NCBI GenBank assembly: GCA_963675375.2
Contig: OY776212.2
Span: 1,651,404-1,715,403 of the forward strand
Reading direction: 5' to 3'
Length of the DNA: 64,000 nt
Origin: Anaerolineales bacterium
Lineage (GTDB): Bacteria > Chloroflexota > Anaerolineae > Anaerolineales > UBA11579
Below the pieces are notes generated by a model. It made no database searches, was not told the DNA's origin, and worked only from the letters and a program-made list of their open reading frames with translations. Both the position numbers and the translations under genes were made by a program. Shown one piece after another: positions 52,741-57,398 of this stretch; position 1 is the first letter of the stretch; the number at the start of each line of letters is the position of its first letter.

Positions 52741-54357
52741 CTACTCTACATTCTTGTTTTCTTTAAATTGTTCCCGGAATTTTTGAGGGGATAAACCGGT
52801 TTTCTTTTTGAAAACAAAACTAAAATAATGGGAGTCGTTATACCCACTCTGATAGGCAATTGTGGCGCATTTGAGGTTGGTGGTGACGAGCAGCTCTTTA
52901 GCATGACCGATCCTCAGTTTTGCCAGGTAGTCTTTAAAAGGTTCGCCCATTTCCTGGCTGAAGATGGTGCTGAAATAACTGGGGGTGATGTTGTACAGCT
53001 CTGCCACCCGGCTCATTTTTAGATCGGGGTTGGAAAAGTTTTCTTCCAGGTAAGTTTTGGCGTGCTGTAAGGTGCGGGAGCGCTCCCGATTGGTCTGGTT
53101 GCTGCGGGAAGCCAGCGCAGTGGCGAAGGTCTCCTGCATATATGCTTTGATCTTCTCCATATTGTCCAGGTCATTGAGCGTGTTCTCAATCTTTTGCAGG
53201 TCTACGGAAAACGCCTCGGCTTGCTCCCCCAGATTGCTGATGAATTGTGCCACCGTGAGGATGATGTCGACGAACATGTAATGCTTCATCACATAAGACT
53301 GCAAGGAGAGACGGGCGGCGGGTGCGATGGTGGCAGCAAAGAACGGTTCAAAGTTTTGCATATCCCCAAACTTTAGATAATTCTCAATGGCGGCGTGGTC
53401 GATTTTGAGGATTTCTACCGGTTCGCTTTGGGTGGGTGGGGCAGTTTGGGAGGGAGGCGTGGCTTTACTTTTTGCCAAGGCTTCTGCAAAGGAGCGGTGG
53501 ATATTCCCTAACCGATCCTGCGGGCGGCCTAATGCTACAACCGCACGGCAGTCGATCCGCTTTTCAATCTCTTTTTTCAGCAGACCGCCCAAGAAGGCAC
53601 CTTCCTGAATCAATTGTTCTGGGCTTTCCCCTTTCATCAGCAAGACCAGTTCTTCAAAGTCCTTTTTGGTCAGGAAAATATCCAGGTTGTTGCCGGCAAA
53701 TTCAGAAACAATCTTTTCAACTTCCTGATACAGCTGGTAGTCAAAGGGGCCGTGTTCGTCACATAACTCGATTTTTATCAGGATCACGAGGTAATGTTTG
53801 GCAATCAGCGCCAACCCCAGCTGGCGGCTCTGTTCAAAAGCCTCGACAGATGAAATTCCGCCCATCACCAATTGAAGTAAAAATTTCTCCCTGCTGAGGG
53901 CTAAAGTGTTTTCTATTTTGTGTTCCAGCTTTTTTAGTTTTTCGCGGGCTTGTTGTTCCTGGTCTAGTTTTGCGGCGAGATCGATCAGTACTTGTTTTAA
54001 GTCCCCCGCGCTGATCGGTTTGAGCAGGTATTCGGTGATACCCAGTTTGACGGCCGACTGGGCATAGTTGAATTCGTCGTGCCCGCTGAGGATGATGACC
54101 TTGATCCAGGGCATATGTTCACGGACGATTTTACTTAGCTGTAATCCATCCATGAAGGGCATCTTGATATCGGTGATCAGAACATCAGGCTTAGCTTCTT
54201 CTATCAGAGGAAGGGCGATCTCTCCATTTGGTGCTTCCCCGCAGAATTCGAACCCGGCTGCTCCCCAATCCACGTTATCCCGGATGCCTTCTCTGGTGAT
54301 TATTTCGTCCTCAACCAGGAAAACCTTGTAGTTCATAATTTCATTATACATTAACAA
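52741..54357 (-). CDS. response regulator with AraC-type HTH output (YesN-like)
   Basis: A receiver domain (KVFLVEDE...DVLITDIKMP) and a C-terminal AraC double HTH. The likelier start is ATG 54336 (MNYKVFLVEDE). Confidence 0.85.
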   Translation of the reverse strand: MLMYNEIMNYKVFLVEDEIITREGIRDNVDWGAAGFEFCGEAPNGEIALPLIEEAKPDVLITDIKMPFMDGLQLSKIVREHMPWIKVIILSGHDEFNYAQSAVKLGITEYLLKPISAGDLKQVLIDLAAKLDQEQQAREKLKKLEHKIENTLALSREKFLLQLVMGGISSVEAFEQSRQLGLALIAKHYLVILIKIELCDEHGPFDYQLYQEVEKIVSEFAGNNLDIFLTKKDFEELVLLMKGESPEQLIQEGAFLGGLLKKEIEKRIDCRAVVALGRPQDRLGNIHRSFAEALAKSKATPPSQTAPPTQSEPVEILKIDHAAIENYLKFGDMQNFEPFFAATIAPAARLSLQSYVMKHYMFVDIILTVAQFISNLGEQAEAFSVDLQKIENTLNDLDNMEKIKAYMQETFATALASRSNQTNRERSRTLQHAKTYLEENFSNPDLKMSRVAELYNITPSYFSTIFSQEMGEPFKDYLAKLRIGHAKELLVTTNLKCATIAYQSGYNDSHYFSFVFKKKTGLSPQKFREQFKENKNVE

Positions 54358-54498
54358 ACTTTTAATCTAAGGATGTTTTGTACAAAGTCTGGAAATTTCC
54401 TGGGTATTTTGGTTTTAGTTTTCATTTGGTATACTAAAGGTGCATATGGGTGAGAATTACTGCACATCCGTGAATGGATCAAGATAATATTTATTCAT

Positions 54499-54515
54499 TA
54501 ATCAATCATTGATTA
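54499..54515. promoter_or_regulatory. AT-rich perfect palindrome (Fur-family-box-like) 24 nt upstream of the LRR protein start
   Basis: taatcaat-c-attgatta, embedded in gataatatttattcattaatcaatcattgattatcatt. Confidence 0.35.
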
Positions 54516-54538
54516 TCATTGTTTGTCTGGAGGGGAAG

Positions 54539-57334
54539 ATGCTGCCTCACGAACCTAATTGGAAATTTGTATTTGCTGCTGTCGTCTTGGTGGGGGTAAT
54601 AGCCTTGCTGACGCCGTTTTCTGCACGGGGAGAAATCTTTTCTCTGCAAGGGAATGATCCGCAGCCAACACCACAGCCTTCTAATCCTGCTCCTAATTAT
54701 CGCCCCAGCTCTTCTGTCCCGTCTGAGGTGGTGGAAAGTATGGGTTTGATCACCCCCAGCATTGTAGGCGGTTCCATCGTAGAACCGGAAAACAAATACC
54801 CGTGGATGGTTTCACAGCAGATGGATGGAGAGCAATACTGCGCTGGTATTTTGATTGGTGGGGATGGCAGTACATCTGAGTGGGTGCTGACCTCCGCACA
54901 CTGCTGGGTAGATGGTGAAGGTATGCTCTATTCGATAACAGATGAAGTCATAGTATTAGGGGAATACAATTTGGTAACTGACTCAGGACATGAACAGGTG
55001 ATTGCCCCAGCCGCGGTATATATTCACCCTGAGTATGTGTACTTTCCTAAACAGTACGATCTGGCACTGGTGCAGTTGAGCACGCCTGCGGTGCTCAATG
55101 ACTACGTCCAGCCGATCTCGCTGACGCCATATAATCATATGGAAAACACCCCAGCGATCATTGCCGGGTGGGGAGCGACTTCCTTTGAAGGGGAATTCCC
55201 TGATGTGCTGTATGAGGCAGCAGTGGATATCTTGCCGGACAGCGCTTGTGATAGCTACAATGAGTTGTTTTACCCCGATTCGATGTTGTGCGCTGCATCA
55301 TCTGATTTTAGCCAGGATACCTGCTCTGGAGACAGGGGCGGCCCGCTCTTCTTTCAGGATGAGGGTGGGAATTGGGTGCTGGCCGGGGTAACCAGCTTTG
55401 GTTTTGAGTGTGCCCGGCCAGATTATCCTGGTATCTATGCAGATGTTTCTGCGGCCTTAGGCTGGATCCAAAATTATGTAACCTATGACTGCTCGCAGGT
55501 GACCACCATCCCGCAGAGTGAGTGTGAAGCTTTGGTGAGCCTGTATACAGCGACGAATGGGCCTGACTGGGATGAAAATACAGGTTGGCTGGAAGATGTG
55601 GAAATTTGTGATCAATGGTTTGGGGTAGATTGTGAAGATGGGCATGTAACTGGGATTGATTTTGAATATCTTTGGGTGGATCAAGAATTATCCGGCGTTA
55701 TTCCTTTTAGTATTGCAAATTTACCTTTTCTCAAAGTATTTGCTATACCTCACAACCAGGTCTCTGGTCCCATCCCAGCAGAATTGTGGACGTTATCTCA
55801 GCTAGAGGTATTGAATTTAGAGGACAACTTGTTTGATGGAGAGATTCCAGCAGCCATCTCAGCATTAAGTGCTCTCAAAGACATCAATCTACGAGAAAAT
55901 GCGTTTAGCGGTGACATTCCAGCAGAGATTTGGACGATGGATACTCTCGAGAAGCTGGTATTGGCGGAGAACGAATTTAGCGGTGAGCTTTCTAGTGCAA
56001 TTGTAAACTTGACTAATTTGGAATGGCTTGATCTGGCAGATAATTCTTTGGAGGGTAATATCCCATCTGAAGTCGGCGATAACCCTAATTTAGATCATGT
56101 GTCTTTGGCGTACAACAATTTCACAGGAGAGATTCCTTCCTTTGCCAATACTTTCAATTATTTGAATCTATCTCATAATGAATTAGAAGGAAATATCCCT
56201 GCGAGTTTATCGATTGAGTCTGCTTCAGATTTTAATCAAACCATTTTATTCCTTTCCCATAATAATCTAACCGGAATCATCCCGGATAACTTTTTAGAAG
56301 TGGCTTGGGTAGATCTTTCATATAATGCGTTGACTGGCGATGTGCCTGGATTCAGATCAAGTAGTTTGAACCTTTCTCATAATGAATTAGATGGGGTTGT
56401 TATTGAACCCAGTGGCCCCCGAGTTTATCCGGCTTTATCGCCATGGATAGATTTGTCTTACAATTATTTGAAAGGAACGCTTCCCGATTTTTATAAAGGC
56501 TTTTCGCAAATAAACCTATCTCATAATGAATTTACCGGTTCTATTTCGACACTACTAGCTACTATGAACCCTGATTTGGAAGATCTAAATGTTAGCTTTA
56601 ACCAACTTTCGGGAGATTTGCCAGAGGAATTTAGTACGCTGCGTTACTTTTCTGGTTTTTGGATGAACGATAATGCGATTTCGGGGGCTATTCCTTTGGT
56701 GTATATGGACCAGACTTTTGAAAATTTCCATTTTGAGAATACAAATATTTGTGAGCATGGCGGGCGGGATTTTCAAGATTGGTTGATGGGAATTCAGGAT
56801 TTGGAAAGATCAGGGCTTTTGTGCCCTGCCCCCGATCCGGTAGTCACATTTCTATCCCCGAAGGCCGGCGGTGTGCTTACCCAGCCGCGGGCGAACATTT
56901 TTATTGATGCCGAGGAAAATGGCAGTACGGTCACCGGGGTTGATTTTTATGCGTACTATTCAGGCGCGTGGCATCTTCTTGGGACTGATGAAAATGGGGA
57001 TGATGGCTGGCTGTATAAGTGGACGACACAGGATATTCCTGCGGAGACGGTGGATATCAAGGTGGTGGTCACCGATAATGTGTTGAACGAGGTAACCGCC
57101 CAATTGGATGACATCCGCGTGAGTGCGGTGAAATCTGTGGGGGATGAAGAGAACGGCTTTACCACCAGAGGCGGGGAGGACGATGAAGAAGAATCTCCAG
57201 CAGAAACAGCAGAAGAAACACCTGCACCTGTTGTGCAAGCGCCTGTTGTGGTGATTCCACTCGCACCTGTCGAAGCAGTGCATTTCCCGCCGCGGGCCGA
57301 TATTCTGGATGGGGGCAGGCAGTATTTGCAGTAA
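54539..57334 (+). CDS. secreted trypsin-fold (S1) domain + plant-type leucine-rich repeats + Ig-like domain protein; catalytic Ser replaced by Arg
   Basis: A signal or anchor helix, then IVGG, TSAHC (His57) and DLALVQL (Asp102), but DTCSGDRGGP instead of GDSGGP (codon AGG at 55334-55336). An LRR cap (LVSLYTATNGPDWDENTGW...WFGVDC) is followed by about 24-residue LxxLxLxxNxLxGxIP repeats. Confidence 0.8.
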   Translation: MLPHEPNWKFVFAAVVLVGVIALLTPFSARGEIFSLQGNDPQPTPQPSNPAPNYRPSSSVPSEVVESMGLITPSIVGGSIVEPENKYPWMVSQQMDGEQYCAGILIGGDGSTSEWVLTSAHCWVDGEGMLYSITDEVIVLGEYNLVTDSGHEQVIAPAAVYIHPEYVYFPKQYDLALVQLSTPAVLNDYVQPISLTPYNHMENTPAIIAGWGATSFEGEFPDVLYEAAVDILPDSACDSYNELFYPDSMLCAASSDFSQDTCSGDRGGPLFFQDEGGNWVLAGVTSFGFECARPDYPGIYADVSAALGWIQNYVTYDCSQVTTIPQSECEALVSLYTATNGPDWDENTGWLEDVEICDQWFGVDCEDGHVTGIDFEYLWVDQELSGVIPFSIANLPFLKVFAIPHNQVSGPIPAELWTLSQLEVLNLEDNLFDGEIPAAISALSALKDINLRENAFSGDIPAEIWTMDTLEKLVLAENEFSGELSSAIVNLTNLEWLDLADNSLEGNIPSEVGDNPNLDHVSLAYNNFTGEIPSFANTFNYLNLSHNELEGNIPASLSIESASDFNQTILFLSHNNLTGIIPDNFLEVAWVDLSYNALTGDVPGFRSSSLNLSHNELDGVVIEPSGPRVYPALSPWIDLSYNYLKGTLPDFYKGFSQINLSHNEFTGSISTLLATMNPDLEDLNVSFNQLSGDLPEEFSTLRYFSGFWMNDNAISGAIPLVYMDQTFENFHFENTNICEHGGRDFQDWLMGIQDLERSGLLCPAPDPVVTFLSPKAGGVLTQPRANIFIDAEENGSTVTGVDFYAYYSGAWHLLGTDENGDDGWLYKWTTQDIPAETVDIKVVVTDNVLNEVTAQLDDIRVSAVKSVGDEENGFTTRGGEDDEEESPAETAEETPAPVVQAPVVVIPLAPVEAVHFPPRADILDGGRQYLQ

Positions 57335-57356: not shown

Positions 57357-57398
57357 AAGACAGGACGTGCCTTTCAGGTGTGTCCTGTCTTTGCTTTT
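57357..57398 (+). terminator. intrinsic terminator
   Basis: aagacaggac - loop - gtcctgtctt followed by tgctttt. Confidence 0.7.

What the first reader, a model, noticed from the sequence alone, without database searches (positions are those of the whole stretch)
55320..55345. Trypsin-fold domain with catalytic Ser195 replaced by Arg, fused to plant-type LRRs: probable pseudoprotease receptor or adhesin
- The S1 domain keeps IVGG, His57 (TSAHC), Asp102 (DLALVQL), the S1-pocket Asp189 and the oxyanion Gly.
- The nucleophile motif reads C-S-G-D-R-G-G-P. The codon AGG at 55334-55336 is one substitution away from the Ser codons AGC and AGT.
- Downstream lie an LRR N-terminal cap and more than a dozen 24-residue LxxLxLxxNxLxGxIP repeats of the plant-specific type, then an Ig-like domain and an acidic tail.
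- If the sequence is correct, the protease domain cannot perform serine catalysis. It may instead act as a binding module, as haptoglobin or HGF-type pseudoproteases do.
- A basic side chain at position 195 next to an acidic S1 pocket is intriguing.
Basis: seen in the sequence. Interest (0 to 1): 0.6.

Follow-up and report, generated by a model that had tools for sequence, protein, structure and literature searches.

The report
Trypsin-LRR surface protein lacking catalytic serine
A secreted bacterial protein joins a trypsin-like domain to plant-style leucine-rich repeats, and one base change has turned its catalytic serine into arginine; it is probably a recently inactivated protease that still binds things, but the reads could not be checked, so a base-call error is not excluded.

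Summary
ORF 54539-57334 (+) encodes a 931-aa secreted protein. In order it has a signal peptide, a propeptide, an S1A trypsin domain, an LRR N-cap, about 15 plant-type LRRs, an LRR C-cap, a Big_7 Ig domain and a disordered acidic tail. Codon 55334-55336 is AGG, so the nucleophile motif reads GDRGGP. His57, Asp102, Asp189, Gly193, Asp194, Ile16 and all three disulfides are intact.

The protein belongs to a rare six-member family with this architecture, known only from metagenomes. Its sister (59% identity in S1) and three other members keep Ser. One member (P0091) has lost all three triad residues yet keeps an intact ORF, so the family tolerates a dead protease domain.

In the window protein the change looks recent:
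- It is one C-to-G step from AGC, the codon every relative uses.
- AGG is the genome's rarest Arg codon.
- The S1 domain shows no extra divergence.

An assembly error would produce the same pattern.

Verdict: a real but young pseudoprotease (about 0.55), a base error (about 0.22), or a non-adaptive knockout (about 0.2). It is a new variant of a known kind and of moderate interest.

The parts
54461..54488 (+). Weak sigma-70-like promoter candidate (TGCACA, 16-nt spacer, GATAAT)
   Evidence: 9 of 12 consensus matches. The region has no more such sites than shuffled sequence, so this is only a candidate.
54500..54514 (.). Perfect 7-1-7 palindrome AATCAAT-C-ATTGATT between the -10 candidate and the RBS; possible operator
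   Evidence: Read directly from the sequence. An earlier first-reader note, e1-3104656, called it Fur-box-like. Its function was not tested.
54530..54536 (+). Shine-Dalgarno-like GGAGGGG, 3 nt before ATG 54539
54539..57334 (+). CDS of the 931-aa S1-LRR-Big_7 protein (P0002), stop codon included
   Evidence: The database protein P0002 starts at this ATG.
54539..54631 (+). Signal peptide or N-terminal hydrophobic helix (residues 1-31, ...FSARG/E)
   Evidence: The sequence shows it. AlphaFold predicts a helix at 8-29. Relatives have typical Sec signal peptides here.
54632..54760 (+). Pro/Ser-rich propeptide (residues 32-74) ending TPS just before IVGG
   Evidence: pLDDT is below 50. The motif TP-x followed by [IV][IV]GG is conserved across the clade.
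54761..55468 (+). S1A (chymotrypsin-fold) domain, residues 75-310
   Evidence: Pfam PF00089, E 7e-45. pLDDT is about 80-93. Foldseek TM-score (target-normalised) is about 0.9 and rmsd about 2 A to DESC1, enteropeptidase and TMPRSS2. Best PDB sequence match is enteropeptidase 1EKB, E 2e-38.
54899..54901 (+). His57 codon CAC (TSAHC), intact
55058..55060 (+). Asp102 codon GAT (YDLAL), intact
55316..55318 (+). Asp189 codon GAT at the base of the S1 pocket. Gly216 and Gly226 are also present, so the pocket is trypsin-like (Arg/Lys).
55334..55336 (+). AGG = Arg at chymotrypsin position 195 (residue 266), where all relatives have AGC = Ser
55484..55639 (+). LRR N-terminal cap with four Cys (residues 316-367), plant LRRNT_2-like
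   Evidence: It aligns with the caps of P0177 and P0059, which hit PF08263. P0002 itself gave no PF08263 hit at E 0.01 or better.
55640..56719 (+). About 15 LRRs (residues 368-727). Eleven fit a relaxed core pattern (L-x2-L-x-L-x2-N-x-L-x-G, similar residues allowed), mostly at 24-residue spacing; the middle ones are irregular.
   Evidence: pLDDT is 85-98. Foldseek top hits are plant LRR receptor-kinase ectodomains.
56720..56833 (+). LRR C-terminal cap, FHFENTNIC...LLCP (residues 728-765)
   Evidence: Conserved in all six family members. Model confidence is low.
56837..57118 (+). Big_7 bacterial Ig-like beta-sandwich (residues 767-860)
   Evidence: PF17957 at 24.8 bits against a cut-off of 24.1. 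AlphaFold predicts strands at 786-860 with pLDDT of about 66-88.
57119..57331 (+). Disordered acidic, then Pro/Val-rich tail ending RQYLQ. The G[FY]xxRGG motif and a C-terminal R-x-[YP]-x-[YQ] motif are shared with relatives.
   Evidence: pLDDT is below 40. Its role is unknown.
57357..57391 (+). Terminator-like hairpin with a 16-bp stem, 22 nt after the stop; the gene is monocistronic

Best explanation
The codon is real as assembled. The gene encodes a Sec-exported, modular extracellular protein of a rare family found in Anaerolineae-like bacteria: an S1A trypsin domain, plant-type LRRs, a Big_7 Ig domain and a disordered tail. In this lineage a single AGC-to-AGG transversion recently replaced the Ser195 nucleophile with Arg. 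The S1 domain therefore cannot carry out serine catalysis. It is otherwise a complete, foldable trypsin module: activation N-terminus, Asp194, the oxyanion Gly, an Asp189/Gly216/Gly226 Arg/Lys pocket and all three disulfides are present. The protein most likely still works through its LRR-Ig part as a binding protein for surfaces or ligands. The S1 domain is either an inert passenger or a non-cleaving Arg/Lys-recognising module. Shown here: the sequence, the domain architecture, the family, and the private and recent character of the change. Inferred: export, loss of activity, a binding role, and any role of Arg195 itself.
For: - AGG is at the Ser195 column of a full-length Trypsin match.
- The gene looks functional. 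It is an intact 931-codon ORF with an RBS and a terminator hairpin, and its domains are confidently modelled.
- A family of six proteins with the same architecture forms one clade in the S1 tree. One member, P0091, has Gln57, Asn102 and Glu195 plus 10 departures at near-invariant columns. It still keeps an intact 747-aa ORF and a Trypsin match of E 1.5e-46. So a dead S1 domain is retained in this family.
- The genome also encodes an LRR-Big_7-tail paralog without any S1 domain (C1:1172791-1175004). So the LRR-Ig module can stand alone.
- Arg at position 195 recurs in other natural S1 domains: 4 of the roughly 400 other domains aligned from the top hits. It is therefore structurally tolerated.
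- From general knowledge of assemblies rather than any test run here, a consensus substitution error at one given base should be rare. In contrast, 1 of the 17 other members of this clade aligned has truly lost Ser195.
Against: - The change is exactly one base from AGC, the codon used by all nine relatives examined.
- AGG is the rarest Arg codon in the genome (5.5%) and AGC is the commonest Ser codon (25%).
- The S1 domain has only 3 departures at near-invariant columns, within the range 0-4 seen in active members.
- It shows no rate acceleration against its active sister: 24 versus 21 unique changes in S1, and 28 versus 25 in the rest of the protein.
- All of these points are equally what a base-call error would give.
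- No ortholog or second assembly carries Arg.
- Reads could not be inspected.
Confidence: 0.55

Rival explanations
1. Assembly or base-call error. The true codon is AGC (Ser), and the gene is an ordinary active secreted trypsin-like protease targeted by its LRR-Ig module, like its relatives P0003, P0005, P0059 and P0177.
For: - There is a single C-to-G difference from the AGC used by every relative.
- The base lies inside a G-rich run (GACAGGGGCGGCCC).
- AGG is a rare codon in this genome.
- The rest of the catalytic machinery and the substitution rate look like those of an active enzyme.
- The genome is a 2-contig, 95%-complete assembly of the kind produced from long reads. That reading of the assembly type is my inference.
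- No independent copy of the gene exists to confirm the base.
Against: - The prior chance that an error hits this one base is very low.
- Indel errors look uncommon: this gene is an unbroken 931-codon ORF, and the genome has 2143 ORFs of at least 300 aa in 4.87 Mb.
- True loss of the triad does occur in this family (P0091).
Confidence: 0.22
2. A real mutation with no new function. This would be a very recent, neutral or mildly deleterious knockout of one of three S1A paralogs, possibly only a variant within the population. It would be on its way to decay rather than a maintained pseudoprotease.
For: - The change is private, single-step and uses a rare codon.
- Two other S1A-type proteases lie at C1:3.66 Mb; the closer one, P0008, has an intact triad and could cover the activity. 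The second was not checked for its triad.
- No ortholog was found in 7 genomes of the same genus or in 400 genomes of the class, so the gene is dispensable at lineage level.
Against: - The ORF has no frameshift or stop over 2.8 kb.
- P0091 shows that long-term retention of a dead S1 domain is possible in this architecture.
- This rival cannot be separated from the best explanation without population or expression data.
Confidence: 0.2
3. The domain still hydrolyses peptide bonds by an alternative route, for example water activated by His57-Asp102 or another nucleophile.
For: His57, Asp102, the oxyanion-hole Gly193 and the S1 pocket are intact.
Against: From the general enzymology of S1 proteases, removing Ser195 lowers kcat by several orders of magnitude. 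A bulky Arg at position 195 would also occupy the site of the scissile carbonyl. No relative uses such a mechanism.
Confidence: 0.03

Closest known systems
Type II transmembrane and enteropeptidase-like S1A proteases (enteropeptidase light chain 1EKB, DESC1 2OQ5, TMPRSS2)
   Same: They are the best sequence and fold matches for residues 75-315: E 2e-38, TM-score (target-normalised) 0.88-0.92, rmsd 1.6-2.3 A. They share the IVGG activation N-terminus, the Asp189 trypsin-like pocket and the three core disulfides.
   Different: They are animal enzymes with Ser195, whereas this protein has Arg195. The flanking domains differ, and this protein is bacterial.
Eukaryotic S1 pseudoproteases: haptoglobin, HGF/MSP, azurocidin, arthropod serine-protease homologues, inactive polyserase domains
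   Same: They have an S1 fold with the nucleophile replaced and use it as a binding module. Arg at position 195 is seen in some multi-domain relatives found.
   Different: They usually lack His57 as well and show the replacement conserved across orthologs. Here only Ser195 is changed, and the change is private to one genome. The comparison rests on my own knowledge and was not tested here.
MamO, the trypsin-fold pseudoprotease of magnetotactic bacteria (PMC4794232)
   Same: It is a bacterial trypsin-fold protein with a degenerate active site, retained for non-catalytic roles. That paper reports that pseudoproteases arose independently several times after duplication. This parallels the two independent losses (P0002 and P0091) among the six S1-LRR proteins.
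   Different: MamO belongs to the HtrA/trypsin_2 branch (S1C) with PDZ and TauE partners, binds metal, and has a remodelled oxyanion hole. The window protein is S1A with an intact oxyanion Gly and an LRR-Ig partner.
Plant LRR receptor-kinase and receptor-like-protein ectodomains (MIK2, ERL1, FLS2, HAESA, PSKR)
   Same: They share the 24-residue LxxLxLxxNxLxGxIP repeats with Cys-paired N- and C-caps. They are the top Foldseek matches for residues of about 320-760, at E about 1e-21 and 22-27% identity.
   Different: This protein has no transmembrane helix or kinase. It is bacterial and is fused to a protease domain and a Big_7 domain. Bacterial proteins with such repeats are numerous in the homolog search, so the repeat type is not evidence of a plant origin.
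Same-architecture metagenomic relatives P0003, P0005, P0059, P0177 (active-site intact) and P0091 (dead triad)
   Same: The order signal-propeptide-S1-LRRNT-LRR-LRRCT-Ig-like domain-acidic tail is identical (Pfam scores Big_7 only in P0002 and P0005). They form one clade in the S1 tree.
   Different: Four have Ser195 (AGC in the two whose DNA was read). P0091 has lost all three triad residues. The number of LRR modules varies from 1 to 4 (639 to 1642 aa).

Membership tests
Peptidase family S1A (chymotrypsin fold) | Full-length match to the Trypsin profile, and the fold | tested here: met
   PF00089 at 154 bits against a cut-off of 20.6, over profile positions 1-220 of 220. Foldseek TM-score (target-normalised) is about 0.9 to S1A structures.
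Peptidase family S1A (chymotrypsin fold) | Catalytic triad His57-Asp102-Ser195 | tested here: not met
   His and Asp are present. Position 195 is Arg (AGG 55334-36). The protein is a structural homolog, not a predicted active peptidase.
Peptidase family S1A (chymotrypsin fold) | Activation N-terminus (IVGG), Asp194, the oxyanion Gly193, and the three disulfides 42-58, 168-182 and 191-220 | tested here: met
   All are present and fall in invariant alignment columns.
Maintained S1 pseudoprotease (serine-protease homologue) | The non-Ser residue at position 195 is conserved among orthologs, or the gene has been retained long after the loss | tested here: not met
   The sister and the other relatives have Ser. 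No ortholog carries Arg. The change looks recent.
Maintained S1 pseudoprotease (serine-protease homologue) | Absence of proteolytic activity and a demonstrated non-catalytic function | not testable with these tools
   This needs biochemistry.
Plant-specific-type LRR proteins | 24-residue repeats with the consensus LxxLxLxxNxLxGxIPxx | tested here: met
   Eleven repeats fit the core pattern, mostly at 24-residue spacing. There are Pfam LRR_1, LRR_8, LRR_4 and LRR_14 hits.
Plant-specific-type LRR proteins | LRRNT_2-type Cys-paired N-cap | tested here: inconclusive
   P0002 gave no PF08263 hit at E 0.01 or better. Its cap does align with those of P0177 and P0059, which hit PF08263.
Plant-specific-type LRR proteins | Fold similarity to plant LRR ectodomains | tested here: met
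   Top Foldseek hits are MIK2, ERL1, FLS2 and HAESA at E about 1e-21.
Big_7 bacterial Ig-like domain | Profile match above the cut-off, and a beta-sandwich fold | tested here: met
   PF17957 at 24.8 bits against 24.1, which is marginal. AlphaFold predicts an all-beta module at 786-860.

The most novel reading that the evidence does not exclude
The S1-plant-type-LRR-Ig proteins may be an undescribed family of extracellular bacterial proteins in which the trypsin domain is primarily a recognition module, binding Arg/Lys-bearing ligands, rather than a degradative enzyme. Catalysis would then be dispensable and has been lost at least twice independently, in P0091 and in the window protein. On this reading Arg195 is a selected change that converts a protease into a non-cleaving trap or plugs its own acidic S1 pocket.
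Probability: 0.15. Interest if true: 0.6.

Novelty: new variant of a known kind. Interest (0 to 1): 0.35.

Why it matters
If the base is real, this is a very young bacterial S1A pseudoprotease. Only the nucleophile has gone and everything else is intact. It sits next to an old, fully degenerate relative (P0091) and four active relatives in the same rare architecture. Together these would give a natural series for studying how proteases turn into binding proteins, and how a trypsin domain cooperates with plant-type LRRs outside eukaryotes. If the base is an error, what remains is a rare but ordinary secreted protease family, and a warning against reading single-base catalytic anomalies in metagenome-assembled genomes without reads.

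Tried and rejected
- **Read pile-up.** I did not try to get around this.
- **Independent copies of the gene.** A protein-pattern scan of JGI metagenomes found nothing. The exact DNA pattern with N at the variable base found nothing in GTDB genomes. A codon-degenerate pattern for D[S/R]GGPLFFQ[D/E]E found nothing in metagenomes or genomes.
- **Orthologs in relatives.** Forty genomes of the same genus, family and order gave none. Four hundred genomes of the class gave none.
- **Third homolog search**, with the sister P0003 as query: no new S1-LRR members, only animal polyserases and S1-only bacterial proteins.
- **Relaxed-constraint tests.** I counted departures at near-invariant columns and ran a Tajima-type relative-rate test per domain. 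Neither showed a signal for the window protein, so they cannot separate a recent change from an error.
- **Tree branch length.** The window branch is 0.52 against 0.27 for its sister. However, the active pair P0059/P0177 shows a similar asymmetry (0.48 against 0.15), so I did not use this as evidence.
- **In-frame-stop count as a proxy for substitution errors.** It gave 266 cases, dominated by normal neighbouring genes, and was uninformative.
- **Synteny with relatives.** None is conserved; the neighbours differ in L019, L020 and L021.
- **Literature.** I found no paper on S1-LRR fusions or on LRR proteins of Anaerolineae.
- **Rejected readings.** Recoding or a non-standard code: the ORF is ordinary under table 11. 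A receptor with a signalling domain: there is none.
Full report
**What is there.** The window has an open frame at 54509-57334 on the + strand. The likely start is ATG 54539, which has GGAGGGG 3 nt upstream, and the database copy P0002 (931 aa) starts there. A 16-bp-stem hairpin followed by a T-rich stretch lies at 57357-57391. Together with the opposite-strand gene upstream (a REC-AraC regulator ending at 54357), this makes the gene monocistronic.

Pfam finds Trypsin (PF00089, E 7e-45, full profile), several LRR families, and Big_7 (24.8 bits against a cut-off of 24.1). The nucleotides at 55322-55345 read TGC TCT GGA GAC AGG GGC GGC CCG, which is CSGDRGGP, and AGG 55334-36 falls on the Ser195 column. 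The following are all present and sit in invariant alignment columns:
- IVGG (Ile16)
- TSAHC (His57)
- YDLAL (Asp102)
- Asp189, Gly193, Asp194, Ser214, Gly216 and Gly226
- the six cysteines of the three S1A disulfides

**Structure.** A full-length AlphaFold2 model was built on an 18-sequence alignment and has a mean pLDDT of 75.7.

| Residues | Feature | Confidence |
|---|---|---|
| 8-29 | N-terminal helix (signal peptide) | – |
| 30-75 | propeptide | disordered |
| 76-320 | S1 domain | pLDDT about 80-93 |
| 360-730 | LRR solenoid | pLDDT about 85-98 |
| 737-783 | cap and linker | low confidence |
| 786-860 | beta-sandwich | pLDDT about 66-88 |
| 863-931 | tail | disordered |

In Foldseek against the PDB, the LRR part matches plant LRR receptor ectodomains best (MIK2, ERL1, HSL1/HAESA, FLS2, PSKR; E about 1e-21). 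The S1 part matches DESC1, enteropeptidase, matriptase and TMPRSS2, with a target-normalised TM-score of about 0.9 and rmsd of about 2 A. By sequence, the closest solved protein is the enteropeptidase light chain (E 2e-38). The 'plant-type LRR' label is thus supported by repeat length and consensus and by fold. Many bacterial proteins with such repeats appear in the homolog search, so the repeat type says nothing about origin.

**Relatives.** Three homolog searches and one exhaustive representative search turned up only five other proteins with the same order of domains:
- P0003: 639 aa, 59% identical in S1
- P0005: 1072 aa
- P0059: 1637 aa
- P0177: 1642 aa
- P0091: 747 aa

All come from metagenome contigs, and none shares gene neighbours with the window. 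In a maximum-likelihood tree of S1 domains the six form one clade (support 88/83). It contains three well-supported pairs: window+P0003 (97/91), P0005+P0091 (99/98) and P0177+P0059 (100/100). The clade sits inside a larger group of bacterial secreted S1A proteins that carry other C-terminal binding modules. No ortholog exists in 7 same-genus genomes, 33 further genomes of the family and order, or 400 sampled genomes of the class. I did not re-derive that assignment.

**The residue in context.** P0003, P0005, P0059, P0177 and the closest S1 paralog in the genome itself (P0008) all have GDSGGP. In every relative whose DNA I could read, the Ser codon is AGC. The window's AGG is therefore one C-to-G transversion away from Ser. 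AGG is the rarest Arg codon in this genome (5.5%) and AGC the commonest Ser codon (25%).

Among 18 clade members, the window protein departs from near-invariant columns three times: Gly43Ala, Gly184Ala and Ser195Arg. Active members depart 0-4 times. A relative-rate test against the sister, with three outgroups, gives 24 versus 21 unique changes in the S1 domain and 28 versus 25 in the other alignable parts. So there is no sign that the S1 domain has drifted since losing its nucleophile. The change is recent, or it is not real.

**Why I still favour a real change.**
- First, the family does tolerate a dead protease domain. P0091 has Gln57, Asn102 and Glu195, a degraded 214-216 segment, and 10 departures at near-invariant columns. 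It is nevertheless an intact 747-codon ORF with a Trypsin match of E 1.5e-46 and all the other modules. Its sister P0005 is intact, so loss in P0091 and loss in the window protein would be independent events.
- Second, the genome encodes an LRR-Big_7-tail protein with no S1 domain at all (803-codon frame at C1:1172791-1175004). The binding part can therefore function alone.
- Third, Arg at position 195 occurs in four other S1 domains among the roughly 400 aligned from the top hits. It is compatible with the fold and is the expected one-step outcome for lineages that use AGY for Ser.
- Fourth, this point rests on general knowledge and not on any test run here. A consensus substitution error at one particular base is far rarer than genuine nucleophile loss, which occurs in 1 of the 17 other clade members. 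The assembly also does not look error-ridden: this ORF is unbroken, and there are 2143 ORFs of at least 300 aa in 4.87 Mb.

Against this, the exact pattern seen is what an error predicts with near certainty: a single step, a rare codon, and everything else intact. A real pseudoprotease shows this pattern only if it is young. No second copy of the gene could be found anywhere. I put a real change at roughly 0.75. That splits into a retained binding protein (0.55) and a non-adaptive fresh knockout (0.2). I put an error at about 0.22.

**How it most likely works.**
- Inferred: the protein is exported by Sec. Relatives have canonical signal peptides.
- Inferred: the propeptide is cut before IVGG. 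The P1 residue here is Ser, as in the genome's own active paralog P0008. Several relatives instead have Arg or Lys at P1, which would suit self-activation.
- Inferred: the new Ile16 N-terminus pairs with Asp194 and shapes the pocket.
- Inferred from general S1 enzymology: without Ser195 no acyl-enzyme can form, so proteolysis is lost. Arg195 would also sit where the scissile carbonyl binds.
- Inferred: the LRR solenoid and the Ig domain provide the ligand or surface binding that in active relatives presumably aims the protease.
- Not testable here: whether Arg195 reaches Asp189 or His57. The structure tool returns no coordinates.

**Comparison and novelty.** Catalytically dead S1-fold proteins are well known in animals. 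In bacteria, MamO is an example; its paper also reports repeated independent losses of the triad after duplication (PMC4794232). What is new here is the architecture, S1A fused to plant-type LRRs and Big_7. I found no description of it. Loss of catalysis also appears twice within its six known members. That makes this a new variant of a known kind. Interest is moderate (0.35), held down by the unverified base and the absence of any ortholog carrying Arg.

Noticed in passing
window 54500-54514: The perfect 15-bp palindrome AATCAAT-C-ATTGATT lies between the candidate -10 box (GATAAT, 54483-88) and the RBS of the S1-LRR gene. It is a likely operator. An earlier first-reader note called it Fur-box-like.
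   Followed up: partly
L021 1736-3979 (JGI 3300022550, protein P0091): A same-architecture relative has a completely degenerate triad (Gln57, Asn102, Glu195) and a degraded 214-216 segment (TRE), but an intact 747-aa ORF. It is an old pseudoprotease in the same family and sister to the active P0005.
   Followed up: partly
own genome C1:1172791-1175004 (- strand, 803-codon frame): This paralog has signal peptide, LRRNT, LRRs, LRRCT, Big_7 and an acidic tail, but no S1 domain. Two relatives of the same family (G011, G014) carry 25-28 matches to the LRR part, which suggests a lineage-specific expansion of LRR surface proteins.
   Followed up: partly
window 57119-57331 and the C-termini of P0005, P0059, P0091, P0177: The disordered tails share a G[FY]xxRGG motif after the Ig domain and end in R-x-[YP]-x-[YQ] (RQYLQ, RLYLY, RYLLY, RMPY, RIRPY). 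P0059 and P0177 also share PME[HR]V, compared with PVEAV here. This may be an unrecognised C-terminal sorting or anchoring signal.
   Followed up: no
window residues 102 and 253 of P0002 (codons 54842-44 and 55295-97): There are two further Gly-to-Ala changes at near-invariant S1 columns, Gly43 (CGG to CAG motif) and Gly184 (CAG to CAA motif). The Gly184Ala change is shared only with P0091, the other dead member, although the two are not sisters.
   Followed up: partly
own genome C1:3660376-3663624 (- strand): Two tandem S1A paralogs (774- and 785-codon frames, the latter being P0008) carry repeated C-terminal modules with YLPM[LT]F motifs. The closer one (P0008) keeps Ser195 and has the same Ser-before-I[IV]GG activation site as the window protein.
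   Followed up: no
S1 clade relatives P0099, P0103, P0109, P0136; P0073, P0087, P0092: The wider clade of bacterial S1A proteins swaps its C-terminal binding modules. These include FG-GAP/VCBS-like GDWDGDG repeats, Cys-bracketed Ig-like repeats and LRRs. This suggests a modular 'protease plus targeting domain' design.
   Followed up: no
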